64,000 nucleotides of DNA from Phyllosticta citribraziliensis. Taxonomy: Eukaryota. Location of the stretch: positions 620,001 to 684,000 of the forward strand of contig NW_027117352.1 of assembly GCF_038025025.1 (NCBI RefSeq). The letters are read 5' to 3'. The notes under the pieces are model-generated. The model did no database searches. It worked only from the letters and a program-made list of their open reading frames with translations, and was not told the origin of the DNA. Position numbers and translations under genes: made by a program. Positions 1 to 28,989 of the stretch are shown one piece after another (within the stretch, counting starts at the first letter, position 1; every line of letters starts with the position of its first letter).

Positions 1-2
1 CG

Positions 3-6571: not shown

Positions 6572-8303
6572 ATGGGCGCAGGCCAGAGCTCCGCGAGCGG
6601 CGGCGCGTCCTCGCAGACGACCGACGCCGCTGTCAAGACCAGCTACTACGAGCTGCTGGGCATAGAACGACAGGCAACAGAAGAAGAGTGCGCACCATTC
6701 TCGTCCGTAGTCTCTCCGTCGCTAACACATCTGCTGCAGGATCCGGAAAGCCTACCGCCGCAAAGCGCTCGAGCTACACCCAGATCGAAACTATGGACGC
6801 GAAGAATGGGCCACGGAGCTCTTCGCCGAAATCCAATCCGCCTACCAAGTGCTGTCCGACCCGCAAGAGCGCGCATGGTACGACTCGCACGAATCCGCCA
6901 TTCTGCGCGGCGCGGATCCGGCCGATGAGCACTTTGAGCACGACGTCAAGGTGACGACGGCCGACGACATTGCGCGGATGATGAAGAAGTTCAACAGCCG
7001 CGTCGAGTATTCGGACGAGTCGACCGGCTTCTTTGGATACTTGCGCGAAGTCTTTGAGACGCTGGCGAAGGAGGAGCGCGTCGCGGCGAGCTGGGACGGG
7101 CTGGACGTGGTCGATTATCCTGGGTTTGGTGGCGAACATGACGATTATGACGACGCGGTCAAGAATTTCTACGCCGTCTGGGGCTCTTTTTCCACGAAGA
7201 AATCATTCTCGTGGATGGACAAGTACCGATACTCTGACGCGCCGGACCGACGAACGAGAAGATTTCTGGAAAAGGAGAATGCTCGATTCCGCGAGGAGGG
7301 CATTAGGGAGTTCAACGACGCGGTTCGGCAGTTGGTTGCCTTTGTGCGCAAACGAGACCCTCGATACTTGCCAAACACGCAGACGGAGACGGAGCGCCAG
7401 CAGATGCTGCGGGACATGCGTGCGGCTCAAGCGGCACGCGCAAGGGCCGCTCACGAAGCCAAGATGAACGAGGAGGTTCCCGAGTGGACTAAGACACGGG
7501 AACCGGAAGAATTAGAAGAGGAGGAAGAGGAAGAGATTGTTGAGGAGCATTTTGAATGCGTGGCCTGCAACAAGACATTCAAGAGTGAAAAGCAGTGGGA
7601 GGCACATGAGAAGAGCAAGAAACATCAAAAGGCGGTTTATGCTTTGCAAAAGAAGATGAGGAAAGAAAACAAGAATCTCCACCTCGACGACGAAGTCCCA
7701 AGCAGCGGCATGGCGACTCCTGACGATGCAGAAGAGGACTGGGCAGAAGAGCCTCGGACTCCTGACGACGTGGAGGACGCTGCCGAAGCAATCCAAAACA
7801 CTACTCTCGAGAATGACAGCCTCTCGGACGCCGACGAGAAAATGAACAGGGGACAGCCCACAAAGAGACCATCGCAACCCTCGCCAGCAGACCCTCTCGA
7901 CAACGCCTCAGACTCCGATCAATCTTCCTCCAACTCCGACTACGTGCCCCGTTCCAAACTCGAATCGCGCCTTGCGGGCACTTCCGCAGAGCCCCCACTG
8001 GAGGAACAACCACATTCCCAACAACCCAGTGCCGAAGTCGACCTTGAGGAAGATGACGAAGACAACACAGCCTTCAAACAGTCTCAACCCAAAATAGGCA
8101 AGGCGGCACAAAAGCGCGCAAAGAAGGCGGCTAAGCTCGCCGAAGCCGAGGCCGAGGAACTCAAGCACAAGTGCGCCGTCTGCAGCGAGGCGTTTTCCTC
8201 GAAGACCCAGCTCTTTCGGCATGTCCGCGATGAGGGACATGCAGCGCCTGTCCCGCAGGCTGGCAAGGGCGCTGGTGGGGGAAAGAAGAAGGGGAAGAAA
8301 TGA
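6572..8303 (+). CDS. JJJ1: J-domain protein with C2H2 zinc fingers, Jjj1/DNAJC21-like (60S biogenesis co-chaperone)
   Basis: Exon 1 is MGAGQS...YYELLG; intron 6688-6739; then IRKAYRRKALELHPDRNYG (HPD motif), LSDPQERAWYDSH, FVRKRDPR, and C2H2 fingers CVACNKTFKSEKQWEAHEKSKKH and CAVCSEAFSSKTQLFRHVRDEGH. Confidence 0.9.
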
Positions 8304-8550
8304 GTGTTGGTTTTGACGAAATCGGGACCATTGGATGTCAAGAGATGAAGGCTGCTCCCTGGGAGGTCAAAAGGGCTCGTCAACGGACCAGTCGAAGGGA
8401 CTGTTGACAAAGATGTCCGCACCACGCTCGGAAAAGTGCGAGAGCGAGAGCGAGGATGCTGGCATTAGTAAGCGAGGACGGGATACGACGACCATCGAGT
8501 CATACCGTCTGTCACTCTACCACTACACAGGGAACAGTACAAATAAACCG

Positions 8551-8900
8551 ACGCCTCAGACTCCGACCCCAATCTCGTCCCTGCTCCAACTCGAATCCCC
8601 ACAGCATTCTCCACGCCAAGAACCACCAACTACGTCAACGAAGACACCCATCAGCATCAGCGGCAAACCCGAATGGGCAAACCCGCGCAGCGCGCAAAGA
8701 AGGCGGCCAAGTCGGCCAAAGACAAAGCCGAGGCCGAGCAGCTCAAGCACAAGTGCGCCGTGTGCGGCGAAGCTTTCTCGTTGAAGTTCCAGCTGCTGGC
8801 GCATTTGCGGAATGAGAGGCACGATGTGCCTGTTCCGCTCGTTGTGAGGGGCGCGGGTGGGTATCATGATGGGAAGAAGGGGCACAAGGCGAAGAAATGA
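8551..8900 (+). pseudogene. Degenerate tandem duplicate of the JJJ1 3' end (last C2H2 finger)
   Basis: DNA such as acgcctcagactccga and ctcaagcacaagtgcgccg recurs from ~7903-8303. ORF 8673-8900 (QRAKKAAK...AEAEQLKHKCAVCGEAFSLKFQLLAHLRNERH) mirrors the JJJ1 C-terminus. Confidence 0.75.
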
Positions 8901-9120
8901 GCTCAAGAGGTGGATTTTCTGTCATTTCTTTTTCCCGCCGCGTCGTCTCGCGCGTGTCCGCTGGCTGTCTGAGGCTCTTGTTGGCCTCGCGAAAAGTGCA
9001 TAGCGTCGGTGCTAGGCAAAACTCTCCTTGCTTTTTCTTCGGGTTTTGAGGGTTGGCGCCATGGTGTTGGAAGATGTGGCTCTGAGTTCGCCGGACCGGC
9101 CCGGAGAGTGTCTCACATCA

Positions 9121-9460: not shown

Positions 9461-10034
9461 GTTTCGGGAAGCGACCTGGGGCGTACAGAATTGCGTCTGC
9501 AAGGCTGAGACGATGCAGAGAGCTGAGCGAAGAGTGGCTTACTGAAGGCTTGCAGGAGGCTCAACAAGCGACTCTGCCGATTTGGGTTGATTGGTTGTCT
9601 TACTTCTCTCGTCTAACCTTCCGCGCTGGGTTCCCCTTTTCCTCTTGACTCTTTCTTTACGTCTTTCGAATTGGACGGCCTTGCATGGCAGTTTATCGCA
9701 TACGCTTGAGCAGTTGCAGAATCGCCACGCTGCTGAATTGGCATGTTGCGCTCGGACGACGGTGGCATTGCTTTTTCGAACCACTGTGCTGAGGTATTTC
9801 TTGAGAAGCGTCACCTCGCTGGTTTCCGTCTCCTCGTCTCTCGTTCTACTTCTCTCCAGGCTCATCGTTTAGCCCCTTCTCGAGACTTGTTGACGGAAGG
9901 CACACGACACGCTCTTGTTGTTCCGGTCTGCAGTTGACGCGGCCGGGCACAACATCTTACTACCAACTCCTCGAACGTCACGCCTGCCCCAACGGACGGC
10001 CTTTCAGAAACCACGTACTCGACTCCTTCTCAAA

Positions 10035-12096
10035 ATGCCGAGTGCAACGGACCTTGTGAGTGTGCTCTGAGCTGATGAAGCCTTCGGTTACTTATCAAAT
10101 GAGGCAGATCACCTACATTGGTATTCCGCTGACCGTTCTGGGCTTGCTTCCAATCTTTTGGAATATCTTCCAGTCGCTCCTCATCCGACACCGATTGTCC
10201 GTATCCATGCCTCCCGAGTTTAGACATATCTTCGATTTGATAGCAAATCCTGCCAATGGGGACGTCATTGTGATTACTCGGCCCGTCTTTTGCGAGAATC
10301 CAGGACTATGGCCCGAATTTGGATCTGATCAGGACGATTCCGGCCGGCAACACCTTCAGTCATGGCACCACAAATTTTCCCTCGGATTGCATTCCAAGAT
10401 AAGAAGTGCAATCCCTGCGATTCGATCGACATACGACAAAGTCTTTGGAGCGCCGCGGGAATTGATTATCAGATTCCGGCACCGGGAGCAAGAAGTATCC
10501 ACATCAGGCCAGATCTCGTCTACACCAAACCAAATCTCGAGTGGGCTGGGAAACATCCTCGAGACCAAGACACTTCACACCGGCAAACAACGACATCTAT
10601 TTCGTCCATGGATGTCTTTACCTTTTCGGATCGGGTCCTCCCCGCATGAAACAGAAGAATTCGCGCAAAAGTATTGGCAAAAATCAGGAGCCACGAGCAC
10701 TGCGGTCAATATCAATATGGACATATCAAAACCTCCCAAATTAATGATGCCATGGAAGAGTTTTGTCTGGTTCTCCCTGGCAATCGGAGTCGATCCTCTT
10801 GATATGTACTCGGCAAAACGAGCATTGGAGCTGAAATTCTCCTTATACAAAAGCACTATACGTATTTCCAAGGACAACGATGACTGGCACGTTGCGCTAG
10901 AACCCGAGATCAGTTATCAATTTTCAATACCTCGAGCACTCGCCTGGAACAACATCATGTGCTTTGACCGTGGAGGCTTGTTGATTTGCCGCGCTCTAGC
11001 GAAACCGCCCGTGAATCAACTGGAATTTAAAGTATGGGGAAAACGGAATATTGATGTGCATGGACAGGGAGAGTTGTGTTCCGATGTTTTCCTCTCACTA
11101 TGCGGTAAATACGAAATCTCCCCCGACTGTTTCTCCAAGCGCTTGGGTGACAAAAAACTCTCCGACTTGGTGCTTATAGACGCGCACTCTGAAAGAATAC
11201 ACACCGCGGCGACTACCTGGATATTCTACCTGGAAGGGCTAGAAAGATTGAGCTCCGAGGCCATGATATGTCCTTTTGTCAGTCAAGGAATGCTCGAGGC
11301 CCAGGAAAGAAGCTTACTTGCGCTTTATCAACTTCAGCTTGACGGAAACCTGAGGGACAAATTATCCCAGGTGTTTCCCGAAGTTTACAAAACAGAACTG
11401 ACGTCGACGCTGAACAACGAGAACGAGGAAGAGAGCTCCACCCAAAAGATGACGAGACGGCTCGTGGATGAAGCTCATTCCTATCTACAGCATGAGTTCG
11501 AATCATCTCCTTATCTAGAGGAATCGAAGAAGTTTGTCAAGATCTTTCAAGACCTACAAAAGCAAATCAAACGCTGTCAAGAAGAATCCCAATTGGACCT
11601 CTCTACCCCTTTGAAAGAAATCAAAAAAATCAGAAGACATGCAGGTCAGCCATACACATGCAGCAGGTCATTTGACGACTCGTCAGTCTTGGGATCTCAG
11701 CAAAGAACAAGTCTCTTTCTGCTTCAGCGACTGAAAGAGACAAGCCCGCTCCAAAAACTTAAAAGCGAGTTTGACCCTCTCGAAAGCAAAGTTGTCGTGG
11801 AGGAGAGGAGTTTTCCGTCCCATGAGATGGCACTCGTGGCACATATAATGATCGCTTTGCAGCCTTGGCAGGAGCTGCAAAGAACAACTTGGGATCTCAA
11901 TGAGATGGCCAAAGATCGATTGCTCACCTGCGACCGCGAACTGGAAAGACAGAACGTAGATGAGGTCATTGGTCAATTGAGAGTCCTAGAGAAATACGCC
12001 AAGATGGGAATCTTCAGCGCACCTGAGATGGGATCGGTCGTCCCTGTGCTTAACGGTTACAGTTACAACTTCCCTGAAGTAGTCTACTTCGTATGA
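10035..12096 (+). CDS. Uncharacterised protein, paralog A (~669 aa), N-terminal hydrophobic helix
   Basis: Exon 1 MPSATDL (10035-10055), intron GTGAG..CAG (10056-10107), then ITYIGIPLTVLGLLPIFWN... open to 12096. Same structure as paralogs B and C. Confidence 0.85.
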
Positions 12097-14488
12097 TCCA
12101 ATACAACGACGGAAATCTTGAGTCCAGAAAAGTCATTCGGCCTGTCACATACGACAACTTCGAGCGTTTCTCTCTCCCACTCTCTATTCGCTTGCCCGCC
12201 TGGCTGCCTACCAACGTGTGGTGTGTCGCGGCGCCGACCAGCCGCTCAAGGGCTTCTGCCTGGGGAAGGCCCTGGGACATACGAGGACGCCCTCGGGAAG
12301 AATACAACTATTTCTGGAGCTTGATGCGTTCCGGCATTTCCCTGCTGCTCTCGGACTTTCTGGGCTATTTTAATGCCCTTTCTCGTTACCGACCAGACCG
12401 ACCCAGCTGCGGACTCAGCACGTCTTCGTGGCTTTTGTATCTACAGATATACCATATCTTCGCTAGTTTGCTCGGTACTGTCTTCTGCCTCTTCTCTTTG
12501 CTCCCGTGGCGGCATATCATCCCCTTGTTCCTCCGCCCCGTGTTTCTTCTCCTCTTCACGCCTCTCAGCACGCCGTCTCCAACATTATGTCTGTCATTTT
12601 TCAGCCGCCATGAAAGCCATGCTTGAATACCACTGGCAACTACGACGACCACCGAAGCGCTAAGCTCTCGGTTCAAACTCTTCCATCGTCGACTGAACGG
12701 GCGAATAGTCCTTGGCATCTGGATCATCGACCACACTGGCAGGTTGCCAGCGTTGCGGTCCATCGCAGAGAAACACGACAAAGCTGCGGGAAACCTCGCG
12801 GACATATAGCTCAACGATATATGTGTCCATCTTCGGCTTCTGCTCCCGCATCCCTGTCCCGTCCTCAAAGTCAAGACCTCTTTCTCTCCTTCCTTTTCAC
12901 GAGGCCCCTTGGCTGTCGAAGAAACCCCTGTTGCTGGAGTAGCCGCGGAGTAGAGCAAATATCTGGCGGAAGCAAGACACTGGACATGGGCGCAGCTTCT
13001 GCCTCATAGAAGGAGGGCCATCTATGGCTTCACGAATTCGGGATCGTGTCAAGACCTTGCAACAGGATATGTTGCGTACCAACTACGAGAGCTTACCCAC
13101 TTCCATGGCAACCCCAAGACTGTTTCGCCGTCGACCTTTTCATCTGGAGTCTTTGGTGCGCTTTCAGCCCGAAGCATGTCTCTCGAATGGTATCTTCGAC
13201 GACAATCCGATCACTTGTGGCTTCTGCCTGTCGCAGCTGGAGAAGTTCGCCATCAGATCGAAACATGTTCCTCCAAGACGATGAGTATCCAATCACTCGT
13301 GGGTTCTTGTTGCTACCTCCGCGGCGGTCTGTTTGTTCGACGGTGTCCTTGTCCTCCCTTTTCCTTTTGTCTTCCGCTTTTCGCTTTTCCTATTCCCCGT
13401 TTTGCGTCTTCTGCTGCTCCTCTCATATCTTCTTATCTATCTCCCACCGTCTCGACGCTGCCGTTGCCTTAGCTACTTCAATGGTGCACAGGTCGGGCCT
13501 ACATTCCACCTCTGCCACCTGCATGGCATTATGTTTGCCAAAAGGGCCCTGCATGATGTATGCCATGATTTCCGCACTGACTAAGGAGCGGCGGCTGGCT
13601 CGAGGAGCAGAAGCTTGCACTTCGCTGAAGCAGCCGCAGAGTACTGCAGACCCCTGGCAGAAGGGGGAGAGGGCGAACCTCAACCTCGGAGAAAGAAGAT
13701 TATCTAAGGCTTCGACGAGTCAGGATCACACGATAGCCTTCATCCGAAATGCAAAGCCAGCCCCCTGCATGAGAAATTGAATGCGCGCTAAAAAGCGTCC
13801 AAAGTTCAGTGTGGGGGCCAAATGTGTTCCGTCATCTTCAGGAGAGAGTTGACGGGGGGTAAGCAGGAAGCTTCCTCTACCAGCGGAATTTCGCCACTCC
13901 CACGCTGAATGCTAGAGCGACAGCCGACACGATCAGCCGTAACAAAAATAAGTGGAGGCGTTCGGCGTCAGAGAGGAAGGCTGTCCCACTGCAGCTGCAA
14001 GGCGATCAGTAATCTGACGTTTTCGGAAAACCGTGAAGGTATTATCCCGTAGCTGCCAATGGCCAGCAGTCTTCAACTTCTCTATCTTCTTTCGGCCCGC
14101 GTTTCTATCTGACGAGCTGGCGGCAGGCTGCCGTGTGAGACAAGCGCCCAGGCGTCAGAGAGTCAGCGACAGGGGCGGTTCCACAGCTACCGCAAGGCTG
14201 AGCCGCCAAAATGCTTACTCCTCCGCATCCACCATGCCAGATAACTGCTGTGGCTTGAGATGGAAGTTCGCATGGTCAGCTGTAGCCTTGCGAGTGCGAA
14301 TTTCCATCGCATCTGCTGATTCATTTGTCGGTGTAGTTCCTTACAGCTTCTACCAGCCTAGCGCCGCTCTCCTTGGTCTGTCAATTTCTCGAGCCATTCG
14401 ATGCGACTCGCCGTCACTCTTGATTTCCGTGGCTCGTCTTTGAACTATTCACGGTTGATCAGCACTCAGCTTTCCGAACGGCCTCAAA

Positions 14489-16777
14489 ATGCCGAACGCA
14501 ACAGACCTTGTGAGCACTCTCTCCTTTGATTTTGCTCCGCTTACATGATGCCAGATCACATATATTGGAGTGCCCCTTACTGTCCTTGGCATATTTCCAA
14601 TACTGTTGAACATTGCCAAAGCTGGTTGGATCTGGTACAGGCTTTCCAAGTCGATTCCGCGTGAACTCAGACCCTTCTATAACCTCATTGCCGATCCTGC
14701 CAATGGTAATGTGACAGTGGTTGCCCGAACGCTAATTTGTGCCCATCCTGGTCTCTGGGCAAGGAAGAAAACCGATGAACCTTCATCACTAGAAAGGGTT
14801 AAGGCTTTCAAGAGGTGGTTCCGGAGCGCGATTACGGCAGTCTTTCCCGGAAGAACGATGTCCGATGAAATTGAGTTGCTTGCCGAAGAGGGACTCGTTG
14901 GGGAATCGGACACATCCTCGCGGACTTCACTATCGTCATATGCATCGACAGAAACCTCGCTATCGGGCGAACACATAGTCTCGATAAAGCCTAGGACAAT
15001 TCGGCTGCGTTCCGGCAAGCTTCTCCGTCCCCCATGGATGGAGGCGGCGTCGACTCTTGGATTTGATCTCAAGCGCAAGCCGCATACCCACTTTGACGCG
15101 ATGCGCTTCATAGTAAACTCCAGCCTGGAGACCAAGACTCCGCCACCACTAGCAATGCGCTGGTCTGACTTTGTTTGGTTCTCCCTCGCCGTTGGAATCG
15201 ACGCCATGGAATTGGCTCTGATCTCGAACGGACGTGTCAGGGGATTCTCATTCAAGGACGCTCAAAATGAGACCATGATGATTTTGTCCAATGAGGGCCA
15301 TGACTGGCATGTCGACATGATGCCCGACTATCATTACCTTTGCTCTATTCGACGAGCGCTAGCTTGGTTTGAGACGATGTGTTTTGATTTAGAAGAAGGA
15401 CAGCCATACTGCCGCAGGCTTGGCAATCACAGCGTCTTGTCGTCAGAACATTTTTTTGGTCGCTTCAGACATGAGCCGCAGACATTTGAGGACCAACTTT
15501 CTGCTGCAGTCACCTGGATTTCCTATAACGGTCTTTACCTAAAGTCACTCGAGGCAATCAATATTTCTGGACGCCAAAGCTCAGAAAACAAAAGCCAAGA
15601 GGATCTATTTGTAAGCCAGAGGCTACTCGAGACGCAGGAGAGAAGCCTCTGTTTTTTACAGAAACTCGACAATGAAGGATCTTTGAACGGCATCCTTCAA
15701 TCACTGTTTTTCAGACCAGACTTCAAGTCGCCCGATGGAATGCTTCCAGGACCTGTCGTTGCGAATGCTATTCTAATCCACCTTCGCATGCTGTTTGCAT
15801 CGTCCGAGTACGTCAAGACGTCACAGGGAATCGCCAACGACTTCGCGGAGCTCGCAACCAATGTCAGATCTCGCGAAATTGACTCGACAATGAGATTTCT
15901 CAGGAGAGAACTACCACGACTGAAAAGGCTTCGAGAACAGAAATCGCCTGACGACTCTCCGCTGGCGAATCTGGTCAGATATGTGATTAGGAATTGCGAA
16001 GAATACAGGGCAATCCTGGAAGCATTCGATCCCATCTTCCAGATGGACGCTAGGCTGAAATCAGTCGATCCTCACTTGCTGATGGATGCTAAGCAACGGC
16101 GTGGGTCTGGGACAGGTGATAAGAATGAAAATTCGAAAGAACGGATCATCCCCAGGGAGTCGCGAAACGTCGGTGGGATCCAAAGTGATTCACCCACGGC
16201 CGATCAAGAGCAAAGAAGCAATCGTGATGAGAACTCCATGCGCGGAAACGCGATGGGAACCGATGGGATCGAAATTGAGTCCGTTTACAGTGATATGGAG
16301 GAAAGCAGTGGACCTGTAATTGAGGTTTTGTTCAGCGACAAGGCAACTAGCGAACCGGAAAACAAATCCACAGATATCGGCGAAGCAAACAGCTTAGCAG
16401 GGACATCCTTCCAAGGCAAGACGAGTGAGGTTAGCAGCCATACAAGCGGAATCGAGGTCGAATCCATCCACAGCGACGAAGCAGAGACGGGCGATCTCAA
16501 AAATGAGAGTGTGCAGCAGAACCTTTACGCACACATATTCCTCGCGCTACAGGAATGGGGAGCCTTTCCAAGGACGACATGGGAGTTCAGCGAAGAGTTT
16601 GCATCAAAGAAAAAAGAGATAGATGGGGCTCTCTGGGGCCACAACGTTGGGCTGGCAGATCTGTTGGAGCAAGCCGCGGACATCGCGAGAAGTGGTGTTT
16701 ACGCCGCACCCCGCCAGGAGCGTTTCCACTGCTTGTTGGACCACCGGATGTTGAAAGCGATGGTGTATTTGCATTGA
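14489..16777 (+). CDS. Uncharacterised protein, paralog B (~747 aa)
   Basis: Exon 1 MPNATDL (14489-14509), intron 14510-14554, then ITYIGVPLTVLGIFPILLN.... Shares PANG-V, PGLW, FVWFSLA-G, RALAW--MCFD, FVSQ-LE-QERSL, AHI-ALQ-W and terminal VY motifs with paralog A. Confidence 0.85.
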
Positions 16778-17656
16778 GATCTGGGTCCACTTTGTTCAAG
16801 TACGGATCTGATCAGCAAAGCCTCCAATCGCTGCCCACTCTGTCAACCCCGATGATCAGATTCGGTGGCGGTCTGACATCAATGCGGTCTGATTCGTTCC
16901 ACAAACATGGCAGGCATAGTCGGCGTCAAGAGAAATGATACTCAAACGATCAGCTGCAGTGATTGTGGACAGCTACTTCAGCCTGATCGTGACTGGGGAT
17001 GCTGATCTCCATTTTCATCCGCCACAGTGAATGGTTGCTCCCTAGATGGAGCTGCAATGCTAGGATTGATCATTTAATTGTGCACCCACCGTGGCGGGCG
17101 TTGATTCGTGCTTGAGCATCTAGGCTTGTCATCTGAGCATCGGAGGTCTTCCTGTTCAAGGGTTGATCCGAGCGGTCGATGAACGGGTGGGCCCGGTCTA
17201 AAGTGGATACGATATCCGGAGCGTGCTCCGCAACTTCAACACAACGCAAAAATCAAGTGGGTAATTGCTGAGGACCCCAGAAAAACTATTGAGAAAGAGC
17301 ATGGGCCGTTTTCACCGCCGCTGTTGTTCTTCGGCCGCTCTTGTGCGTTGGTTCTCCACCTGCCATTGAGCGTAGGACACCTGCTGCCACCGAAGTCAGA
17401 TGGAAATCTGAGTTGGACAGTGGACCGTGTAGTATCGACGGACGTACATACCGCGGAGCCTGGCTTGCATTCCTCTTGCGACCCGCTCTGGGCGGCATAT
17501 AGAGGATCCGCCGGTCAATAAAATGGAAGCTCGTCTTTGTTGAATTGCCGTCTTTGATCAAGTCTCTTCAGATGCTGGGCTCTGGTGGCCTATCTTGAGC
17601 TCCAAACACGTCAAATTTGCTCCGTATCGCCAACTCGCCGCTAAAAAAAATCCAGG

Positions 17657-18629
17657 ATGGCCAGCGCAACAGACGTTGTGGGTTGCTAGATGACGCCTAG
17701 TGTACTTCGACTAGTTGGCACAGATCACTTACGTTGGTGTACCCCTGACGGTCATGGGTATTATGCCAATTCTATGGAACTTTTTGAAGGCGTTCTTGAT
17801 TCGCTTCAGACTATCACAAACCATTCCTTGGGAGCTCAGACCATTTTACACGATCTCTGCTGATGCCGCCAATGGAGACGTTACTGTTGTCATCGACTCA
17901 ATCAGTTGTGTCCATCCCGGGCTGTGGCCTGACGAAAAGACCGGAGTGCAGTACACTCTTAGCCCTGGAATGATGTTCAAGAGGTGGTCGCATAGGGCAT
18001 TTTATCGCTTGATGTACAAGTGCGAGCCGATATACACGAAATTCACGCGATCCGCGTACGTCAAGAGATCCCAACATGTGGGCAAGAGTCTGAGACGAAT
18101 CGGGGAAAGGCTTAAAGAATGCCAAAATGACTTTGTTTCGGAAAGCAAAGCTCGAGAGGCAGCAGTGGACGTCTTTGCTGAGCTCGAAAAGGATTACAAA
18201 CAGCCACTACAGCCTGGATCATATTGCATGCGACTGGGGAGCCCCTCGCTCGAAGAAATTCTCTTCGGACACATATTTAGCCATCAGAAGTTTCGACAAC
18301 TCCAAGAGTTGCTCAAAGGATACAAGAATGCCCAAGCGGAGGTTGGAGCATGGGATGATGACTTGACGTTTCTGGCGCATGTTATCATGGGCTGCAAAAT
18401 GTGGGACATGCTCCAATGCGAACCCTGGGAAGCCGATGAGAATATTGTGTCGGATATGCAGCAGATACGTCAGAAGCTGGAGGATCCCAGCCTTGATGTC
18501 GACAAAGTGTGCCAACTCTTGGAAGAGGCGGCAGGGCGTGCGGAGTGTGGCATTTACACCGCACCTAAAGAACCAATCTGCGACCTGTTCGAGAAGTTCA
18601 GAAGCAAAGGGACGGTGTACTTGATTTGA
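17657..18629 (+). CDS. Uncharacterised protein, paralog C (~308 aa, internally shortened)
   Basis: Exon 1 MASATDV (17657-17677), intron 17678-17723, then ITYVGVPLTVMGIMPILWN...AANGDV...HPGLWP...SAYVKRSQ...AHVIMGCKMW...GIYTAP...TVYLI*. Confidence 0.8.
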
Positions 18630-18833
18630 GGTCGTGCTGTATATGATAAAGCTGAAGCATAAACAGATGGAAAGACTGAGTCGTCTTCGCTTGGCAGGAA
18701 ACGATGAGAAAAAGAGTGCAAATGCCGCCGCAACTGGCGGTCACCCTGGAACAGTTGTCGGAATTCGACGATAAGAAAGAAAATGAAATGTTGGAAATCC
18801 CAAAGCCCATCGTACTCCAACTTCGCAACACCT

Positions 18834-21800
18834 TCACCAAGCCAAAAAGATGTCCGGTGGGTCCGTCGTCCAGGAAATCACTTGCCCCTGAAGTTTCCCC
18901 CGTATCTCTCTCAAGCGAAGGAAATGCTCAAAAGAAGACTCCTCACTGTACCTCTGGAATCTTCCCTTCCAAGGAATCCGCACCTCTTCCAGACCAGCCC
19001 ACGGTTTCATCGATCTGCTGTCGGCTTCCAGTTCGCCGGCTCGGGCATCCTTAATCTTGAACTGTTGCGTGTGACGTTCCACCAACAGCCAGTGCTGAAT
19101 TCCTGGGTGCCCCTCTGCAGCAGTCAGAGCACTTCTGAATCGGAGACCGTTCGGATATGTCAGTTTTGCCCCCCTTCTGACGAGAAATTGGACCGAGTCT
19201 ATCCGCCCCGCTGAGCAAGCTGCCATCAGAGCACTGCCGTCTGGACAACCCTCCTCATCGATGTCTGTGCCGTACTTAAGTAGCAGATCAATGTCATCGA
19301 TGCATTTTCCCAAGGAAGCTTGACACAGTCGAGATATCTTCTGTTGTGGCCCCTGAATCTCAAACTTTCGCTTTGTCCCTGGATCCTTAGACTCATACTT
19401 CAGAGCCCTTTTGATTTCGAAAAGGGATCCAGAGAGCATAAGATCGTCGAGCTGGTAGAAGATGGCATCTTGGTTGAGACTGCTACCAGAGCTACCCGGA
19501 GAGTATTCTTGCGTCAGGCTTCGACTTTTCCGTGGTTGATTGTCCGGCGCATCCTTAGCGCTGACAACAAAGAGCCGGGAGATATTCTGAAGTGGATATC
19601 CCCTTTCAAGGAGGAATACCGTAAGCTCTGGTATCATGAGCTTGCCAGTGTTGGTCAGCATCGCGGACAACTTTCGGCGATCTTTCCAATTCGACAAGGT
19701 GCAGTCTGCTCCGAACTCTTCCAAAAGCTCCAGGTGCTCCAGAGAGCCACGGCACAGAGCGATGATAGCAGCAGTCTCCATGTTGGATGTACGGCTGTTG
19801 GGATTTGCGCCATGTTCAAGCAGCAATCTCGTTATATCTTGAGAACCGCTCCAAATGGCATGATGAAGTGGTGGTACAAAATACTCTGGAAAGTTTGAGT
19901 CCGCTCCATATTTCAGTAGAAGTTCGACACAAAAGTAGCAGGATTCCGAGGCTGCAATAAGTAACGGAGTGTATCCTCGGTCGATTGTGAAAGAAGGATC
20001 ATTACATCTGTAACTCGCTCTTGCCTGCACATTGATGATTGAGCAAGAGAGGCACTTGTCAGACGTCTGGCTCAAGGGAACCCCCGATTCTATGCTGCGG
20101 GTATGCGAGTGTTCAGCGTTGGGGGTTGACTTTTGAATGTGATCAAGCAAAATCTTTTGTCCTGGTTCGTTGCATGTTGCGACTGCGACGTGGAGAGGAT
20201 GAATGGGGGTATCGTTATCGAGCTGCAATGATACCGAGTTCTGGCAAAGTAGAAGGCTTAAGACACCATTGAACTGAGGGGCCAGGGCCGCAAGATGTGT
20301 CACTTTTAAGAAAGGAGCCTTGGCGTTCCCACAAGTCTGAAAGTTGAGCGACGCTCCTCGACAAATCAGGAGCCTTGCCATGTCGGGATGTCCGTTCTCA
20401 AAGGCAGATACAAGCGGCGTGCATCCACATTTCCCAGGGTGTAAAGGTATTTGGTCAATATTCGCGCCGGCATCAAGGAATCTGTCGACTTCATGGCTGT
20501 CTCCTCTGCCGACGGCTGTCATGAGAGCGTGCGAAAGCACTTCAATCTTCTGGGACTGCGATGTTGTTATTGTTGCTTTTCGTACTTTTATTAGTAAAGA
20601 ATTGTTTCCACTGAGTATAGTTCGTGCTACTGACCATGATTTTGGCTTGTCTTGTTGATCAAATTTGCAGTGTAATTGTGGCCAGCTGCGAGAGCACAGA
20701 GCTCAGGAGTCATTCCGTCATGATTCTTTACATCGATTGGTCCAGCTTCCAAGAGCACGGACACGATGTAGTTTCTACCCCTGGAAGCAGCGACGTGAAT
20801 TGGTAGATTTCCATTCCTATCGGAGACTCTAGGATCAGCTCCACATCCCATCAAGTACGCAAAAAGACTTCCGTCACGGCCTGAGGCGAAATGGAGTGGA
20901 GTACGCCCAGCCTTCGTCGTCGCATTGAAATTCGCGCCGTGACGTATCAGTGACCGTGCCGAGTCTATTTGGTCCATATCAACAGCCTCATGCAATGGAG
21001 TGTACTCGTTTTCGGCTCGGCAATCGACTTCGAAGATGCCTTTCACCAGAAGATATTGCAGGAGTTGAGGATGAACAACTGCCAGATGCATGATGCTTTG
21101 GCTGTAAGATTTCCTCGAAAACCTGGAGGTTGATTTAGGCGATGGATCAGAAAATTCAGAACTGAGTTCGTCTCGATGTCGGAATCGAGACCTTTCAGTC
21201 CAGGCTGTCCACACGTAAGGTGGGATTTCGAACCTGTCCAGAACCTCGAAGCATGACTTTGAGCCTGAGGATGCGGCAAAGTGGAGGAAGTTCCACCCAT
21301 CGCCGGCTGTGATCCCTGGATCTGCGTTGTTTTCAAGAAGGGCCGCAAGCAGTTCTGGTTTGTTATTCTCTGCTGCATTCATCAACGCGGTTTTACCAAA
21401 GCAGTCGAGCAAGTTGATATCCATTCCTCTCAGACGCACTTGCCTCAAACGGTCAACTCGTAGCAGTTTTTCTTCTGAGCAAAGGCGATGGACCAGCCCT
21501 TGTCCATATGAGGCACGTTCTTGAAAAGGCTCATCAATGCGAGTATTTTCCACAATCAGTTCGAAGATGGCATCGCAGCAGTTCTTGGAACAAGCTAGTT
21601 CAAGCGGAGTGGGACGCGAATCTTTCTTGGTGGCATCATGGGTGCAAGTGCCCCGGGATAAGAGGGACCTGACGAGATCGACGTTGTTCTGTTTGATGGC
21701 ATATTCCATTGCTCTGACGTCAAAATCGTTTGTTTGAAGGATACTGTCCCAGAACTGACCCAGGTATTCCTGGAATCTGCGTGTCGATTTATGACAAGGA

Positions 21801-24800
21801 AGGGCAATGAAGGCGTCTGCAAAAGTTGGATCTGCCTTCCATCCCTCCGTTCGTTCGATGAGAAACGACAGCGACTCCAGAGAGTCTGAATTAGCTGCAT
21901 GGACGAGCGGAGTGAATCCTCGGAAGCATGTAGCACGTAAAGCTTCCTTCCAGTCGCTGTCGAGCAAGGTAAGGGCTTCGAGAATCTCAGGGTTGTTTTC
22001 TTTTGCTGCAAGATGCCAAACATTACAACCCGATTCGTCGATAGCGCCCGGGTTGGCACCGGCCTCCAAGATCAGAGTGAGACCCTGAGTGTTTCTGTTT
22101 GAAGAGCACTTATGGAGAGGGGTCTGACGCATCTGATCGACTTTGTGAACGCTGGCTCCCGAACCGAGCAAAATTCTCATGGCTCTGACTGAGCCCTGTG
22201 AGGTAGCTCGATGAAGGGCGGATTGTCCGGAATCATCTGCGGCGTCTATGTCGATACCAGGGCGCTTCAAAAGGTCCTGCAGCACAGACTCCTGATCGTG
22301 CGCTGCTGCCTCCCAAATGGATTCTTGCAGCTCCTCGGGTTCGCCAGGTTCCGGCCCCTCATCACCGATTTCCTGAACCTTTAGCTGCAGCTCAAGTTGA
22401 ATCTTCAGCTTAGTGTACCAATCTGTCAGACGCGCGGGAATCCAGTCGTCACTTATCGCTCGTACGACGAGTTCCATTGCAGACGGGTCTTGCATTCGCC
22501 ATTCCAAGATGGACAGTTCATGCTCCTCTAGACGCCCACCGAAGTCCCCGACAAGAGAGACAAGTTCAGATATAAGTTTTCTTTCGTATTCGTCTGTGCA
22601 GTTCATGTCCAGTACAATGCCCATTACGCTGATCGATCGATGATTGGTCCTCCAGGGTAGTTCATGGGCGTATAGATTATGGGAGCATGTTGCCCCAGAA
22701 GCAAAAAGCATCTGTAGTATCGGTTTCAGAGCCGTCTCGGACCGAGCCTCCCAGGGTTGACATTTTTGTCCATAGCCGTCGATTCCAGTGAGTACGCAGT
22801 GTACTGGGGTACCGAAATCACTCATTTGATTTGCTTCACATCCCATGTCCAATAGCCACTGCACGATTTCGGGGATTCGGAACATGGCAGCAAAGTGGAG
22901 GGGACCCATGCTGCCACTGGCGATCGCCGATGTCAGCCGTTTGAAGGACGATGGTCCATGAAGAAACCTGTCTCCGTGGCGTAAAGAAGAACGGATTACT
23001 TTTTCCTGGGCCCAAGAAAGAAAGTTGTGAGTTTTGGTAGGGCTCAACAACACTTTGGCTTTGTCCAAAACACGTTGATCGTCCCAACCTTCCCGACAGA
23101 CACTGAAAGCATCCACGGCAAATTTTCTGAATGGGTATCGTCTCCAACGCTCGTCCATCTCTTCCAAGCTATTGGCCAACTTCAAGCTGAAATCGGTCCA
23201 GGTCAAGTAGGTCAGGCGCTGGATCGAAAGCTTGACCACCGCTGCCTTCCGGTCCATGTGATAACGAACAAGGTTTTTCCTCCGGATTGGATCGATAGAG
23301 AGAAGAAACTCCTCCACAGTGAAATGAGAGATTTCGAGGTAGTCTCCCTTGACTGATTTGCGCACTAGGCTACTGCACAAAATCAAAATATCGCCGAGGC
23401 CGGGAACGTCTTCGTGGTTGAGCTGATTCGACCCATCCTTGATCGCAAGAGCCTCGCAGAGAGCAGCAATGTCCATTCTTGGAGCGAACAGTAGCCACCT
23501 CAGTGTGTACTCGACGAGCTCTTGTTCATCAGTGCCACACTGGTTCACCCTCTCGAGAATGCGTTCATATGTTTCGGAAAGGGTAGTTGGGAGGCTTCGC
23601 AAAGCTTTGCGGAGTGCTGAGTCTGTACGCGATCTGCATAGATCATCCAGTTGGCAAGTTACCCACCGGAACCTTGTATAGCAGTCAGCACTAACGAGGA
23701 GGTCAATGAATTATCTGAACATACATCCCGTCCGCCTTGTTGACAAGACATTCCACAATCTCTGCTTTTAAGGCCGGATTCGGTTCGTGCAATCTTCCTT
23801 CTTCAATTCGAAGCTCAACCTCCGCAGCAACGTAAAGCTGCAGGTCATCAGTGTGAGCTGCGATGGGAATGTGTGCGTATGTTTTCTCCAGACGGCTCCT
23901 CAAGTGATGCTCATCTCGACTGAGAAAAAGGGTACTGATTCTGCTGAATTTGTCGCCATTCAGCTTCTGGAGTATGTTGACGACTGGGACTTGATTTTCG
24001 CCGCATTCATCAAGGGCATCCACGACGATGGACGCTTCGTCGAATGAAGAACGACACATTTCTCTAATCAAATCGAGAAGGCGCTGGGCTTCGGGACGTC
24101 TTGGACCTCTTCCTTTGGGATGACACTCGACATAGTACTTCTCCAGTTTCTCGAAGCTCTCCTGACTTTCATCCTGGCGCGAAATTTGAGCGGCAATGGC
24201 ACCAAGAATTTTGACAGGGTCTTGTCGGTTCTGATCCTTGTAGTCGCAGTAGAAGTAGGCGACAGCTCTCCTGGAAGAGCTTTGCTTCAAAGCCTCTTCG
24301 ACTACCAGGGAAGCCAAGACGGTTTTGCCCGCGCCGGGAATGCCAGATAGCCACAGCTTCGACCCTGGAATATCGAGCCATTGCTTGAATGCTCCGTGTT
24401 CGATCAACCACAGTCCAGTCAGAGGGTGACGCAGCTTCAAGCTTGTATCATGGTTTGAGCTCGGATCAACACTTCCGAAGAAGTCAAGGACCTTCCGGCG
24501 GTGATCATCCATGGAAATACGCGTTTCAAACTCCCATCTGCGCTTCGTCTCGGAGTTCAGCTTTTCTATCTCGTCATTTATTTTTCCAAGCTCGTTTCGG
24601 ATCTCGGTTTGCGTGGAAAGAGATTGTAGGAGTCGATGCATGGAGTCTGCATTCATGGATTGACTGATCTCGGTGTGAAGCCCTGAAATTTGATCCACCA
24701 ATTTCTTGGTCTCTGACGATGAAAAGGGCCAGGACAATTTGATCTTGATGGAGTTTGCGAGGCCGTTTTTCGCTGACGGCTCTCTGCCTTCCAGTGCCTG

Positions 24801-25064
24801 TTTGATTCTTTGAAGTATTCGCCCGCATGATTCAAAATGGCGGTGCCGGATTTCTCGTCGAGCATCTTGATCGTCGAGCTCCAGAGACAAGCGGAAAAGG
24901 CTGTGCAACACGCCTGACAGGGCCTGGGTCTTTTCTGCCAGCAAAGCTATGTCGGATTCTGCGTCCTTCACAGCTTTGGCATAGCGGAAGACTTTGCTGA
25001 AAACGACATCTGCGAGGGACACGAGGCCAGCGACACTCGCCGAGACGGATAATGGATCGGTCAT
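18834..25064 (-). CDS. Fungal NLR-like STAND protein: HeLo-like/fungal N-terminal domain, NACHT, ankyrin repeats (~2042 aa)
   Basis: N-terminus MTDPLSVSASVAGLVSLA, Walker A GIPGAGKT, Walker B SIVVDALDEC. Intron 23673-23724 restores ADGMFRWVTCQL; intron 20585-20634 joins the 991-aa and 568-aa ORFs in frame. Many ankyrin repeats (TPLH, GKTALM, GYTPLL, GSALMAAC). Confidence 0.9.
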
Positions 25065-25568: not shown

Positions 25569-25863
25569 GGACCGTCGGAGAGGTTGTTTGTTGAAGATGG
25601 ACGTTGGAGCCACAGCAGGGTGTAGCCGACAGACTCGGCCCAAACGGCGGAGCGTCAACCCCGCTGCCGACGTCGGGACCGCCCGTGCCGCCATCCGTTC
25701 CGCCCCGCGAGCTCGGCCCGAGATTCATCGACGACTCACTCCGCTCACTCACGCTGAGTCCATGACAAGCAGACTGCTTTCTTCAGCCTAACGCCCCTCC
25801 CTCAAACCAGTCTCACCAATTCCTTCCCCAGTCTCGCCAAATCAACCCCCAATTGACAGCACC

Positions 25864-27133
<1,270 letters not shown>

Positions 27134-27559
27134 CGGGCTGCAGGACGATGAGAGCACGTCAATATTCACTGAGGGCGGATCAATCTGCTCTTTGCGCTTG
27201 TGGAGATGCAAATGGGTTTTCAAAAACTAAACATTGTTGATTGGGAAAACGCCGACGTATCCCTCTCTATAGCTCCAGTCCTCCGTGCTCCCATTAGAGT
27301 TGCGCCGGGCATGGCGGGGTCGTCAAAGTTCCCAAGTAGCCGTCGTGTCAATCGTCAAGAATTCCGTCCGGTCCGATCATGAGATGAATCCAAATATGAG
27401 AAATAAACGCCATCCTCGTCCAGGTATTTTATGCAGCGGCCAGTCGTCGGCCATGTAAGTAGTTGGTCCAGCAGGTATCCCGAGTTCAAGCATTAGGGCA
27501 GCACCGCGCCTGAAAGCAGTCTTGGCTGTGCGCCTGGGGCAATCAACCTGCCCAAAACA

Positions 27560-28471: not shown

Positions 28472-28989
28472 GGATGTGTGAGTTGGGGTGGTGAGGAGTC
28501 TGGATGACTGCGGAATGGAAAGACTGCAGGGTGGAGAGCGAGGCAAGGTTCAAGTTGGCTGTTGAAGGTGAGGTCGGAGTGTGGTGGATTGTGTGCGGAG
28601 GGGCAAGTGCGGTGCGGTGCGGGTCGGGAGACTGACAGAGTCCTGCCGCTGACGCACGCCTCTGACTTTTGACCGGGACCGCTGCGAGATGCGTACGATA
28701 GGGCTGACGTCTGCTGTGAGTGGTCTTCAATGTCTGCAGGTGGTGAAGTTGAGACGACGTTCAGCTGCTTCGAGGCCTGTTCTTTTTTTCGACTGTGACA
28801 CAAAGCAAAGGCTGCCTTGGCCAATAATGACCCAACCAACGCCTGGCTTCAATCCGTCTTTGACCACATCCCATGTACCCAGCAAAGCAGCCAATCATTG
28901 CTTTCGAAATGACCAACACCCAACCGTCCTTTGTATGTACCATGAAATCGTGCTGACGCTCGCCATACAAGCAACTGTCGCTTGTGACC

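What the first reader, a model, noticed from the sequence alone, without database searches (positions are those of the whole stretch)
10035..25064. Tandem triplet of an uncharacterised membrane-anchor family tail-to-tail with a giant NLR: candidate non-self-recognition or cell-death locus
Seen: three same-strand genes share a 7-codon first exon (MP[SN]ATDL / MASATDV), a phase-0 intron, a hydrophobic ITY[IV]G[IV]PLTV[LM]GxxPI helix, ANG[DN]V, PGLW, AH[IV]xxxxxxW, G[IV][FY]xAP and a terminal VYxx*. They are otherwise very diverged, so the duplication is old and the frames have stayed open. Paralog C stops 204 bp from the stop of a HeLo-like/NACHT/ankyrin NLR. Established: fungal NLRs often cluster with their effectors or guardees, and allorecognition loci are rich in diverged paralogs. 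Inference: the triplet may be an undescribed effector, guardee or decoy family linked to this NLR. I cannot assign the family to any known domain.
Basis: partly seen in the sequence, partly recalled or inferred. Interest (0 to 1): 0.72.

Follow-up and report, generated by a model that had tools for sequence, protein, structure and literature searches.

The report
Hypervariable membrane-anchor gene cluster beside NLR
Three old tandem copies of an undescribed fungal membrane-anchored protein family sit next to a giant NLR immune-type receptor in a gene cluster that varies strongly between Phyllosticta strains and species, as fungal self/non-self recognition loci do, but no function has been tested.

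Summary
Three same-strand genes (A 10035-12096, B 14489-16777, C 17657-18629) share a 7-codon first exon, a phase-0 intron, one N-terminal transmembrane helix and the C-terminal motifs. The introns of A and B are spliced out in a public contig. C ends 204 bp from the stop of a convergent NPHP3_N/NACHT-ankyrin NLR of about 2039 aa.

By 100% protein matches the organism is Phyllosticta citribraziliensis. The family has no Pfam domain (0 of 112 relatives). It folds confidently (pLDDT 82, pTM 0.81) and I found no convincing PDB match. About 110 cluster representatives exist, in several Pezizomycotina classes. Its first 32 residues are shared with a different, syntenically conserved fungal family.

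New here: the cluster is hypervariable.
- Positional counterparts in P. capitalensis strains are 37-39% identical, yet nearly identical within a class.
- The C ortholog shows allele sharing that contradicts the species tree.
- A and B differ 35-55% from their sister-species counterparts, against 87-90% for a slow paralog.
- The neighbouring NLR is 39% identical between conspecific strains.
- NLR adjacency recurs in P. capitalensis and in one unrelated metagenomic contig, but not in three other contexts.

Best reading: a candidate kind-recognition locus (confidence 0.45). Its link to the NLR is unproven.

The parts
10035..10055 (+). Paralog A, exon 1 (MPSATDL)
   Evidence: Sequence. Matches the annotated 669-aa protein P0004 at 100%.
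10056..10107 (+). Paralog A, phase-0 intron (52 nt, GT..AG)
   Evidence: Skipped in a contig of run X1.
10108..12096 (+). Paralog A, exon 2 with stop codon (662 codons). It holds the transmembrane helix, a beta-rich middle module and a C-terminal helical bundle.
   Evidence: AlphaFold2 model pLDDT 82.2, pTM 0.81. The only hydropathy peak lies at residues 6-33.
14489..14509 (+). Paralog B, exon 1 (MPNATDL)
   Evidence: Matches annotated protein P0007 (747 aa).
14510..14554 (+). Paralog B, phase-0 intron (45 nt, GT..AG)
   Evidence: Skipped in a contig of run X1.
14555..16777 (+). Paralog B, exon 2 with stop codon (740 codons). It includes an acidic, Ser-rich insert with a twice-repeated GIE[IV]ES.[YH]SD motif at 16265-16294 and 16448-16477.
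17657..17677 (+). Paralog C, exon 1 (MASATDV)
   Evidence: Matches annotated protein P0011 (308 aa).
17678..17723 (+). Paralog C, phase-0 intron (46 nt, GT..AG), inferred
   Evidence: Sequence. No contig covers it.
17724..18629 (+). Paralog C, exon 2 with stop codon (301 codons). This is an internally deleted form that lacks about residues 150-503 of its 703-aa orthologs.
   Evidence: tblastn of P0012/P0117: residues 8-149 map to 17724-18095 and residues 504-703 map to 18042-18626.
18630..18833 (.). 204-bp tail-to-tail spacer between C and the NLR
18834..20575 (-). NLR exon 3 (ankyrin repeats, 579 full codons plus stop). It is not part of the public 1461-aa model.
   Evidence: Ank_2 E 1e-33. 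The 2101-aa relative P0260 aligns at residues 1529-2100 (44% identity).
20576..20634 (-). Putative NLR intron 2 (59 nt; GTCAGT ... TACTAAT ... AAG), phase 1
   Evidence: Read from the sequence; it restores the frame into exon 3. Not confirmed by reads.
20635..23672 (-). NLR exon 2 (post-NACHT region and ankyrin repeats)
   Evidence: Ank_2 E 5e-62. P0141 residues 448-1461 match at 100%.
23673..23724 (-). NLR intron 1 (52 nt, GTATGT..AG), phase 2
   Evidence: Sequence and the junction in annotated protein P0141.
23725..25064 (-). NLR exon 1: N-terminal HeLo-like region plus NPHP3_N/NACHT P-loop domain
   Evidence: NPHP3_N E 3.9e-36, NACHT E 2.4e-4, PigL_N (PF17111) E 1.1e-3.

Best explanation
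SHOWN
- A, B and C are three old tandem paralogs of an undescribed Pezizomycotina protein family.
- Each protein has a 7-residue N-terminal stub and one strongly conserved transmembrane helix (consensus ..SATD-ITYIGVPL[AT]VLGVLPIL[WY]N), followed by basic residues.
- Next come a beta hairpin, a beta-rich middle module and a C-terminal helical bundle that ends in a short strand (VYxx). C has lost the middle module.
- The genes lie in a cluster of about 15-20 genes in Phyllosticta. That cluster holds at least seven paralog lineages and a polymorphic HeLo-like/NACHT/ankyrin NLR.
- Within the cluster one lineage evolves slowly. The others, including A, B and C, differ as strongly between strains or sister species as alleles of fungal recognition loci do.

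INFERRED
- By the positive-inside rule the bulk of each protein faces the cytosol and is tethered to a membrane.
- I read the fast lineages as polymorphic identity tags of a kind- or non-self-recognition system. They may act among themselves, as the DOC proteins of Neurospora do. Or the neighbouring cytosolic NLR may read them through its ankyrin repeats, oligomerise, and trigger cell death through its N-terminal HeLo-like domain.
For: Family and anatomy
- Searches give the gene structures and paralogy.
- No Pfam family was found in A, B, C or in 112 relatives. The single listed hit (DUF1229, E 6e-4, below its cut-off) is noise.
- A profile search found 110 cluster representatives with E<=1e-3, and 26 with E<=1e-30.
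- Named members come from Phyllosticta, Cladosporium, Fulvia, Cryoendolithus, Rachicladosporium, Leptodontidium, Oculimacula and two lichen fungi.
- The model is confident (pLDDT 82.2, pTM 0.81).
- There is a single hydropathy peak at residues 6-33.

Expression
- The introns of A and B are spliced in a run X1 contig.

Hypervariability
- Slow lineage, used as an internal control: P0013 (P. citribraziliensis) is 87-90% identical to its P. citrichinensis counterpart, 71-74% to P. citricarpa and 62-64% to P. capitalensis. Within P. capitalensis this lineage is 94-96% identical.
- In contrast, B is 55% identical to its P. citrichinensis positional counterpart and A is 35%.
- In P. capitalensis, P0015 has 1 mismatch in 696 between two strains, and P0019 has 2 in 623 between two other strains. 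Yet P0015 and P0019 differ at 316 of 589 aligned residues.
- P0020 and P0024 each have an accession four numbers from their strain's P0130-type gene. They differ at 282 of 488 aligned residues.
- C ortholog: P. paracitricarpa vs P. citriasiana shows 1 mismatch in 610, and vs P. citricarpa 55 in 703. The control gene shows the opposite pattern (1 in 636 and 38 in 632).
- The quick tree groups the C orthologs against the species tree with SH-aLRT 98.

NLR link
- C is KAK7529985 and the NLR is KAK7529986.
- In P. capitalensis the NLR and a family gene carry consecutive accession numbers in 4 of 4 strains that have an NLR hit.
- Those NLRs are only 39% identical between HDK90 and BKA78/IWZ00, and 85% for IWZ01. 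The HDK90 NLR is closer to the window's NLR (48-59%) than to its conspecific counterpart.
- An independent contig, L011/L013, has a family gene head-to-head with a NACHT-ankyrin NLR, with HET and TLDc genes nearby.

Composition
- A, B, C and the NLR share low GC3 (0.53-0.57, against 0.67-0.80 in five flanking housekeeping genes; exportin-5 is 0.59). They show no RIP signature.
Against: - No phenotype, interaction or localisation was tested.
- The two P. citribraziliensis strains on record carry the same C protein, and identical NLR residues 1-610. Polymorphism within this species is therefore not shown.
- 'Positional alleles' are inferred from the order of accession numbers on the same contig, not from coordinates. 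They could be different paralogs that are present in some strains and absent in others.
- The species-tree discordance rests on one gene. Introgression could also explain it.
- NLR adjacency is absent from 3 of 4 informative metagenomic contexts of the subfamily: DUF7624/zf-MIZ, FAD-binding and RhoGEF-PB1.
- No close NLR ortholog from P. citricarpa, P. paracitricarpa, P. citriasiana or P. citrichinensis appeared among the 120 best hits listed. That search was limited to 8000 candidates and to lengths of 794-2265 aa.
- The NLR sits at opposite ends of the cluster in the two species. It lies next to C here and next to the slow P0130-type gene in P. capitalensis, so no specific partner is conserved.
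- NLRs and fast-evolving genes tend to gather in the same plastic regions.
Confidence: 0.45

Rival explanations
1. The triplet is a fast-evolving, lineage-expanded family of membrane-anchored proteins with some ordinary cellular role. It lies in a plastic, weakly expressed part of the genome. The NLR is there because such regions collect NLR and HET genes, and the two do not work together.
For: - Linkage to NLRs is not general.
- No NLR ortholog was listed for four other Phyllosticta species.
- The NLR lies next to different paralogs in the two species.
- GC3 is low in all island genes and in the HET gene 25 kb away.
- C has suffered a large internal deletion.
- A sister family with the same N-terminal helix is a stable, syntenically conserved gene.
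Against: - Relaxed constraint does not explain near-identity within allele classes next to 37-39% identity between classes in one species.
- It does not explain a C-ortholog allele shared by two species that differ by 6% at the control gene.
- All three frames are open, the motifs are kept and A and B are spliced.
- NLR adjacency occurs in 2 of 5 independent contexts. I expect about 1% per gene if a genome holds about 55 NLRs (4613 candidate NLR sequences in 84 Sordariales genomes plus two outgroups, passages of PMC12258605) among about 10,000 genes (my own figure).
Confidence: 0.35
2. The family proteins are themselves membrane-acting executors, such as pore-forming or membrane-perturbing proteins, that act downstream of or in parallel with the NLR.
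For: - The N-terminal hydrophobic helix is very strongly conserved: in a motif-selected set of 94 unique sequences, G and P positions are 92-100% conserved (the pattern used to pick the set fixed or restricted most of them, so these figures are inflated).
- The weak top Foldseek rows for the full model are ClyA-type alpha pore-forming toxins. ClyA scores E 0.18, and XaxAB, AhlC, Hbl-B and SmhB score E 0.9-3.4.
- XaxA scores Z 8.5 in VIA-align.
Against: - These scores are far below significance (probability <=0.15, TM <=0.17) and are typical for any long helical bundle.
- The NLR already carries its own HeLo-like N-terminal domain.
- A constitutive transmembrane anchor differs from the latent helices of known executors.
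Confidence: 0.07
3. The genes are host-interaction effectors of a plant-associated fungus that evolve fast under host pressure.
For: Phyllosticta species live in citrus. The genes evolve fast and are clustered.
Against: - The hydrophobic stretch has basic residues after it and no cleavage-type signal, so the bulk should be cytosolic (positive-inside rule).
- Relatives occur in lichen fungi, rock-inhabiting fungi and non-pathogens.
- The proteins are 600-750 aa long.
Confidence: 0.03

Closest known systems
Neurospora crassa doc-1/doc-2/doc-3 ('determinant of communication') greenbeard locus (PMC4831770, passages read)
   Same: - Linked, highly divergent tandem paralogs.
- No identifiable functional domain in DOC-1 or DOC-3.
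- One or two predicted transmembrane segments in DOC-1 and DOC-2.
- About 35% amino-acid identity between haplogroups and over 95% within them.
- Alleles kept through speciation events.
- Haplotypes that differ in gene content.
   Different: - Homology was not tested, because no DOC sequence was available to me.
- DOC proteins are longer (DOC-3 is 920 aa by the passage read) and were found by BLAST only in Sordariales.
- The passages I read mention no NLR neighbour.
- No communication phenotype is known here.
NLR plus linked polymorphic partner loci: plp-1/sec-9 of Neurospora, het-Z of Podospora, and Bcvic1/Bcvic2 of Botrytis (the first two recalled, not read; for Bcvic only the search listing and the start of the abstract were seen)
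   Same: A cytosolic NLR-type receptor is encoded next to a polymorphic, membrane-associated partner, and alleles are old.
   Different: - The partner there is an essential SNARE and the NLR has a patatin/NB-ARC/TPR layout (recalled).
- Here the partner family is new and multi-copy, and the NLR is HeLo-like/NACHT/ankyrin.
- Co-variation of NLR and partner alleles, and any incompatibility, are untested.
Fungal PF17111 (HeLo-like 'fungal N-terminal domain of STAND proteins')-NACHT-ankyrin NLRs of about 2000-2200 aa
   Same: The window's NLR aligns along its N-terminal 453 aa at 38-61% identity with the 118 listed relatives from other species (296 proteins had E<=1e-40 and the best 120 were listed, two of them the window's own gene models). 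Most carry PF24883, ankyrin repeats and PF17111.
   Different: Nothing unusual in the NLR itself. Its PF17111 match is below Pfam's cut-off (18.8 vs 27.2 bits). The public model is truncated at 1461 aa.
Sister family with the same N-terminal helix (metagenomic loci L016-L080)
   Same: The first 32 residues align profile-to-profile with probability 98.7% and 56% identity.
   Different: - The rest is not detectably related (hhalign E 0.58 after trimming the helix).
- There is no intron after codon 7.
- It has conserved synteny with an S10 carboxypeptidase, a methyltransferase, DHBP synthase, FBPase and an H2TH glycosylase.
- It also has no Pfam domain.

Membership tests
Any Pfam family (triplet proteins) | Match to a curated profile at or above its gathering score | tested here: not met
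   0 families for A, B and C. 0 of 112 relatives have a real hit. 0 of 17 sister-family proteins have a hit.
Any solved fold (triplet proteins) | Significant structural match of a confident model | tested here: inconclusive
   Full model: no Foldseek hit at E<=1e-3 (best 0.18). Best VIA Z is 11.0, on generic four-helix bundles over residues 470-645. Middle module alone (pLDDT 77.9): no Foldseek hit at E<=1e-3, best VIA Z 5.6.
Fungal NLR (STAND) with HeLo-like N-terminus | NACHT-type P-loop NTPase domain | tested here: met
   NPHP3_N E 3.9e-36 (125 bits, cut-off 24.8). NACHT E 2.4e-4.
Fungal NLR (STAND) with HeLo-like N-terminus | C-terminal repeat domain | tested here: met
   Ank_2 E 5e-62 and 1e-33 in the two downstream exons.
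Fungal NLR (STAND) with HeLo-like N-terminus | PF17111 N-terminal domain | tested here: inconclusive
   PigL_N/PF17111 E 1.1e-3, 18.8 bits against a cut-off of 27.2. Most close relatives carry PF17111 in precomputed annotation.
Fungal allorecognition (het/vic/doc-type) locus | Discrete, deeply divergent allele classes within a species | tested here: inconclusive
   Seen for cluster members and for the NLR in P. capitalensis (37-39% between classes, 1-2 mismatches within). Position was inferred from accession order only. Two P. citribraziliensis strains share the same C protein.
Fungal allorecognition (het/vic/doc-type) locus | Trans-species polymorphism | tested here: inconclusive
   The C ortholog is discordant with the control gene and the species tree. 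The HDK90 NLR is closer to the window's NLR than to conspecific NLRs. Introgression is not excluded.
Fungal allorecognition (het/vic/doc-type) locus | Allele-dependent incompatibility, cell death or fusion avoidance | not testable with these tools
   Needs crosses or co-expression.
DOC family (Neurospora doc-1/2/3) | Sequence or fold homology to DOC proteins | not tested
Only the organisation was compared.
NLR-guardee pair (plp-1/sec-9 type) | Physical recognition of the partner by the NLR, and co-varying alleles | not tested
   The one complex job was not folded by the tool. Allele co-variation needs full haplotypes.

The most novel reading that the evidence does not exclude
The cluster is a new kind of fungal self/non-self system. 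A multi-copy family of membrane-tethered cytosolic proteins derives from a conserved core protein that shares its 32-residue anchor helix. These proteins serve as polymorphic identity tags. A co-located, equally polymorphic HeLo-like/NACHT/ankyrin NLR reads them, so a mismatch triggers NLR oligomerisation and cell death. As far as I recall, this would be the first molecularly defined incompatibility locus in Dothideomycetes, and it would add a new partner family for fungal NLRs.
Probability: 0.22. Interest if true: 0.82.

Novelty: new variant of a known kind. Interest (0 to 1): 0.62.

Why it matters
Most fungal NLRs have no known ligand or partner. Only a handful of allorecognition loci are defined at the molecular level, almost all of them in Sordariomycetes (recalled). 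This finding offers several things.
- A family with no Pfam domain that folds confidently and has more than 100 cluster representatives.
- A cluster whose variation pattern marks it as a candidate recognition locus in a genus that includes a regulated citrus pathogen and its endophytic relatives.
- A concrete NLR-partner hypothesis that can be tested by allele swaps.

The 32-residue anchor helix is conserved between two families that are otherwise unrelated. That helix is an open question in itself: it may be a targeting signal, or it may contact a partner inside the membrane.

Tried and rejected
- Own genome search: none is held for this window.
- Earlier findings of this scan: nothing by place, sequence or words.
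- A further copy or relic of the family in the window: tblastn with 21 family proteins hit only the three genes.
- RIP as the cause of divergence: rejected. TpA/ApT is 0.29-0.49 and (CpA+TpG)/(ApC+GpT) is 1.34-1.50 in A, B, C and the NLR, against 1.72 and 0.08 in the AT-rich block at 39.5-44.5 kb.
- Homology of the sister family beyond the N-terminal helix: not detected.
- Fold searches: only generic helical matches, and no row for the beta-rich part.
- ESM Atlas: three unnamed Ascomycota clusters with no Pfam family.
- Word-index search with the 81-sequence profile returned only 7 Phyllosticta proteins.
- Complex prediction of C with the last ankyrin exon of the NLR: the tool did not fold the job. 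There is no result either way, and I did not pursue it further.
- RNA evidence: no listed run is on record as RNA. C (17510-18577) and the NLR intron 2 site had little or no contig cover, which says nothing about expression.
It was repeated with 14 sequences.
- The careful tree search did not finish in 300 s. The quick tree is used instead.
- Literature: searches for Phyllosticta genomes, doc genes, fungal NLR clustering, and Phyllosticta with heterokaryon incompatibility turned up no description of this family. Sequence motifs cannot be searched there, so this is weak evidence that the family is not in print.

Full report
THE OBSERVATION

It is real. Reading the three starts shows ATG at 10035, 14489 and 17657. 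Each is followed by seven codons (MPSATDL, MPNATDL, MASATDV) and a GT..AG intron of 52, 45 and 46 nt in phase 0. The second exon begins ITY[IV]G[IV]PLTV in each case. The second exons are uninterrupted frames of 662, 740 and 301 codons.

The three-way alignment has as invariant columns the helix motif, ANG.V, PGLW, AH...W, G...AP and the terminal VY. Overall identity to A is only 34% (B) and 28% (C). tblastn E-values between the copies run from 6e-49 to 2e-20, and no fourth copy or relic lies in the window.

A 10,924-letter contig of public run X1 covers 9500-17524 and skips exactly 10056-10107 and 14510-14554. So the first introns of A and B are spliced in RNA.

IDENTITY OF THE ORGANISM AND THE NEIGHBOUR

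A, B and C match annotated proteins of Phyllosticta citribraziliensis at 98-100%.

The convergent neighbour is an NLR. Its exon 1 (25064-23725) carries NPHP3_N (E 3.9e-36), a weaker NACHT hit, and a sub-threshold PF17111 HeLo-like hit (E 1.1e-3). The downstream frames are full of ankyrin repeats.

From the sequence and the annotated protein I place intron 1 at 23724-23673. The public model stops at 20627 (1461 aa). However, a 59-nt intron with a good donor, branch site and acceptor (20634-20576) joins the frame to a further 579-codon ankyrin exon. A 2101-aa P. capitalensis relative aligns colinearly through that exon at 44% identity.

296 proteins matched its N-terminal 453 aa at E<=1e-40. Of the best 120 listed, many are 2000-2200 aa with the same layout. 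The NLR itself is an ordinary member of a large class.

THE FAMILY

None of A, B, C, 112 relatives, or 17 members of a sister family matches a Pfam model.

A profile search of 1.84 billion cluster representatives found 110 with E<=1e-3, and 26 with E<=1e-30. Named members come from:
- Dothideomycetes: Phyllosticta, Cladosporium, Fulvia, Cryoendolithus, Rachicladosporium.
- Leotiomycetes: Leptodontidium, Oculimacula.
- Lichen fungi.

The ESM Atlas places A in unnamed Ascomycota clusters.

AlphaFold2 with 81 sequences gives a confident model (pLDDT 82.2, pTM 0.81). It has a long N-terminal helix, a beta hairpin, a long helix, a beta-rich module, and a helical bundle that ends in a short strand.

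Foldseek finds nothing at E<=1e-3, and VIA-align finds only generic four-helix bundles (Z up to 11.0). The middle module folded alone (pLDDT 77.9) also finds nothing (best Z 5.6). I do not claim a new fold, only that I found no convincing match.

Hydropathy shows one transmembrane-grade segment, at residues 6-33. An acidic residue lies before it and basic residues after it. By the positive-inside rule the bulk should therefore be cytosolic. That is inference.

C is an in-frame deletion form. Its 703-aa orthologs align at residues 8-149 and 504-703 only.

A SHARED ANCHOR HELIX

A metagenome scan seeded on ITY[IV][GS]VPL[TA] gave 80 loci. Loci L001-L015 are of the triplet's type, with the intron before ITY. 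The rest belong to a different family of 550-600 aa that has no intron there.

The two families align only over the first 32 residues (probability 98.7%). With the helix trimmed off, nothing remains (E 0.58). The sister family sits in conserved synteny with an S10 carboxypeptidase, a methyltransferase, DHBP synthase, FBPase and an H2TH glycosylase.

Across 94 unique sequences the helix is almost invariant at I, T, Y, G, P, L, G and P. That set was selected with a pattern covering the first ten positions, which inflates their figures. A membrane helix conserved this strongly suggests a specific contact or targeting role. I cannot say which.

THE CLUSTER IS HYPERVARIABLE

This is the main new result. 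It rests on protein clusters and on the order of GenBank accession numbers on the same contigs. The method is checked by the window itself: C is KAK7529985 and the NLR is KAK7529986.

Gene order by accession:
- P. citribraziliensis has a fourth paralog (P0013, KAK7529970) 13 accession numbers before A's inferred position.
- P. citrichinensis has the same order: 656, then 666/667.
- P. capitalensis strain HDK90 has the NLR (431), then family genes at 432, 433, 436, 449 and 450.

The P0013-type lineage behaves like a normal gene. It is 87-90% identical between P. citribraziliensis and P. citrichinensis, 71-74% to P. citricarpa and 62-64% to P. capitalensis. It is 94-96% identical within P. capitalensis, and its tree matches the species tree.

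Against that control:
- B is 55% identical to its P. citrichinensis counterpart, and A is 35%. The A-clade branches are 0.76 and 0.67, against 0.04 and 0.08 in the slow clade.
- Within P. capitalensis, P0015 is shared by HDK90 and IWZ00 with 1 mismatch in 696. P0019 is shared by HDK64 and HDK77 with 2 mismatches in 623. Yet P0015 and P0019 differ at 316 of 589 aligned positions.
- P0020 (HDK90) and P0024 (IWZ01) each have an accession four numbers from their strain's P0130-type gene. They differ at 282 of 488 aligned positions.
- The C ortholog of P. paracitricarpa differs from that of P. citriasiana at 1 of 610 positions, but from P. citricarpa at 55 of 703. The control gene shows 1 of 636 between P. 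citricarpa and P. paracitricarpa, and 38 of 632 between P. paracitricarpa and P. citriasiana.

This is the pattern described for the doc genes of Neurospora: about 35% identity between haplogroups and over 95% within them (PMC4831770, passages).

THE NLR SHARES THE PATTERN, AND THE NEIGHBOURHOOD RECURS

In all four P. capitalensis strains in which one search found an NLR of this class, its accession number is consecutive with the P0130-type family gene. These NLRs are 99.7% identical between BKA78 and IWZ00, and 85% for IWZ01. The HDK90 NLR is only 39% identical to them. It is closer to the window's NLR (59% over the first 617 residues, 48% overall) than to its conspecific counterparts.

An unrelated metagenomic contig (L011, with the shorter L013 showing the same arrangement) has a subfamily gene head-to-head with a NACHT-ankyrin NLR. 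A HET gene and a TLDc gene lie nearby.

EVIDENCE AGAINST A FUNCTIONAL LINK

- Of 26 loci of at least 7 kb that I scanned (28 exist; two near-duplicates were dropped), only L011 has a NACHT gene. L011 and L037 have HET genes, and L035 has ankyrin repeats only.
- Among the triplet-type loci, three other contexts have no NLR: DUF7624/zf-MIZ in six loci, FAD-binding in two, and RhoGEF-PB1 in one. So 2 of 5 independent contexts have an adjacent NLR.
- With about 55 NLRs per genome (passages of PMC12258605) and about 10,000 genes (my own figure), chance adjacency is near 1% per gene. But the sample is small and post hoc, and fast-evolving genes co-locate.
- No close NLR ortholog from the P. citricarpa group or P. 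citrichinensis was listed. That search had caps, so this is weak evidence.
- The NLR flanks different paralogs in the two species.
- Within P. citribraziliensis the two strains on record do not differ at C.

COMPOSITION

A, B, C, the NLR and the HET gene at 50182-52308 have GC3 of 0.53-0.57. Five of six housekeeping genes in the window have 0.67-0.80, and exportin-5 has 0.59. None of the island genes shows a RIP signature, while the block at 39.5-44.5 kb does. RIP therefore does not explain the divergence of the paralogs.

VERDICT

I commit to a polymorphic kind-recognition locus as the most likely reading (0.45), with NLR coupling as the bolder version (0.22). The main rival is incidental co-location of fast-evolving genes (0.35). 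Function, localisation, binding and DOC homology remain untested. The single complex-prediction job was not folded.

Noticed in passing
window 39500-44500: AT-rich block (GC 0.24) with a strong RIP signature: TpA/ApT 1.72 and (CpA+TpG)/(ApC+GpT) 0.08. No long ORFs. Probably a RIP-degraded repeat.
   Followed up: partly
window 50182-52308 (+): HET-domain gene (PF06985, E 6.6e-25), 25 kb from the NLR. It has the same low GC3 (0.53) as the triplet and the NLR.
   Followed up: partly
window 18834-20634 (-): The public NLR model (1461 aa) stops at 20627. A 59-nt intron at 20634-20576 would add a 579-codon ankyrin exon. In the second strain's annotation one accession number lies between C and the NLR (KAK8186764 and KAK8186766), perhaps this exon called as its own gene.
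   Followed up: partly
window 12097-14488: The 2.4-kb spacer between A and B lies inside the same spliced X1 contig as both genes. Its two ORFs of 205 and 256 codons have no Pfam match. Read-through, an antisense RNA, or an unannotated gene could each explain this.
   Followed up: no
window 16265-16294 and 16448-16477: B carries an acidic, Ser-rich insert with a duplicated motif, GIEIESVYSD and GIEVESIHSD. A and C lack it.
   Followed up: no
loci L016-L080 (e.g. L035:3975-5654, L017:10001-11776): A second Pfam-less fungal family of 550-600 aa shares only the 32-residue N-terminal helix with the triplet family. It sits in conserved synteny with an S10 carboxypeptidase, a methyltransferase, DHBP synthase, FBPase and an H2TH glycosylase. 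Some profile hits (P0102, P0110-P0112, P0114) also match only the helix.
   Followed up: partly
L011:192-9586: The metagenomic contig holds a TLDc gene, a HET gene and a NACHT-ankyrin NLR in a row. The NLR is head-to-head with a family member. The NLR's 176-codon N-terminal ORF has no Pfam match.
   Followed up: partly
window 53664-54215 (-): Weak protein-kinase match (E 4e-4, below cut-off) in a run of short broken frames at 53163-54699. Possibly a decayed kinase gene.
   Followed up: no
window 1-9000 and 25800-37000: The triplet and NLR form a low-GC island (0.48-0.53) between housekeeping genes of GC 0.54-0.63. On one side lie an M3 peptidase, an SPX-RING protein and a zuotin-like J protein. 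On the other lie quinolinate phosphoribosyltransferase, COX20 and the DNA polymerase epsilon catalytic subunit.
   Followed up: partly
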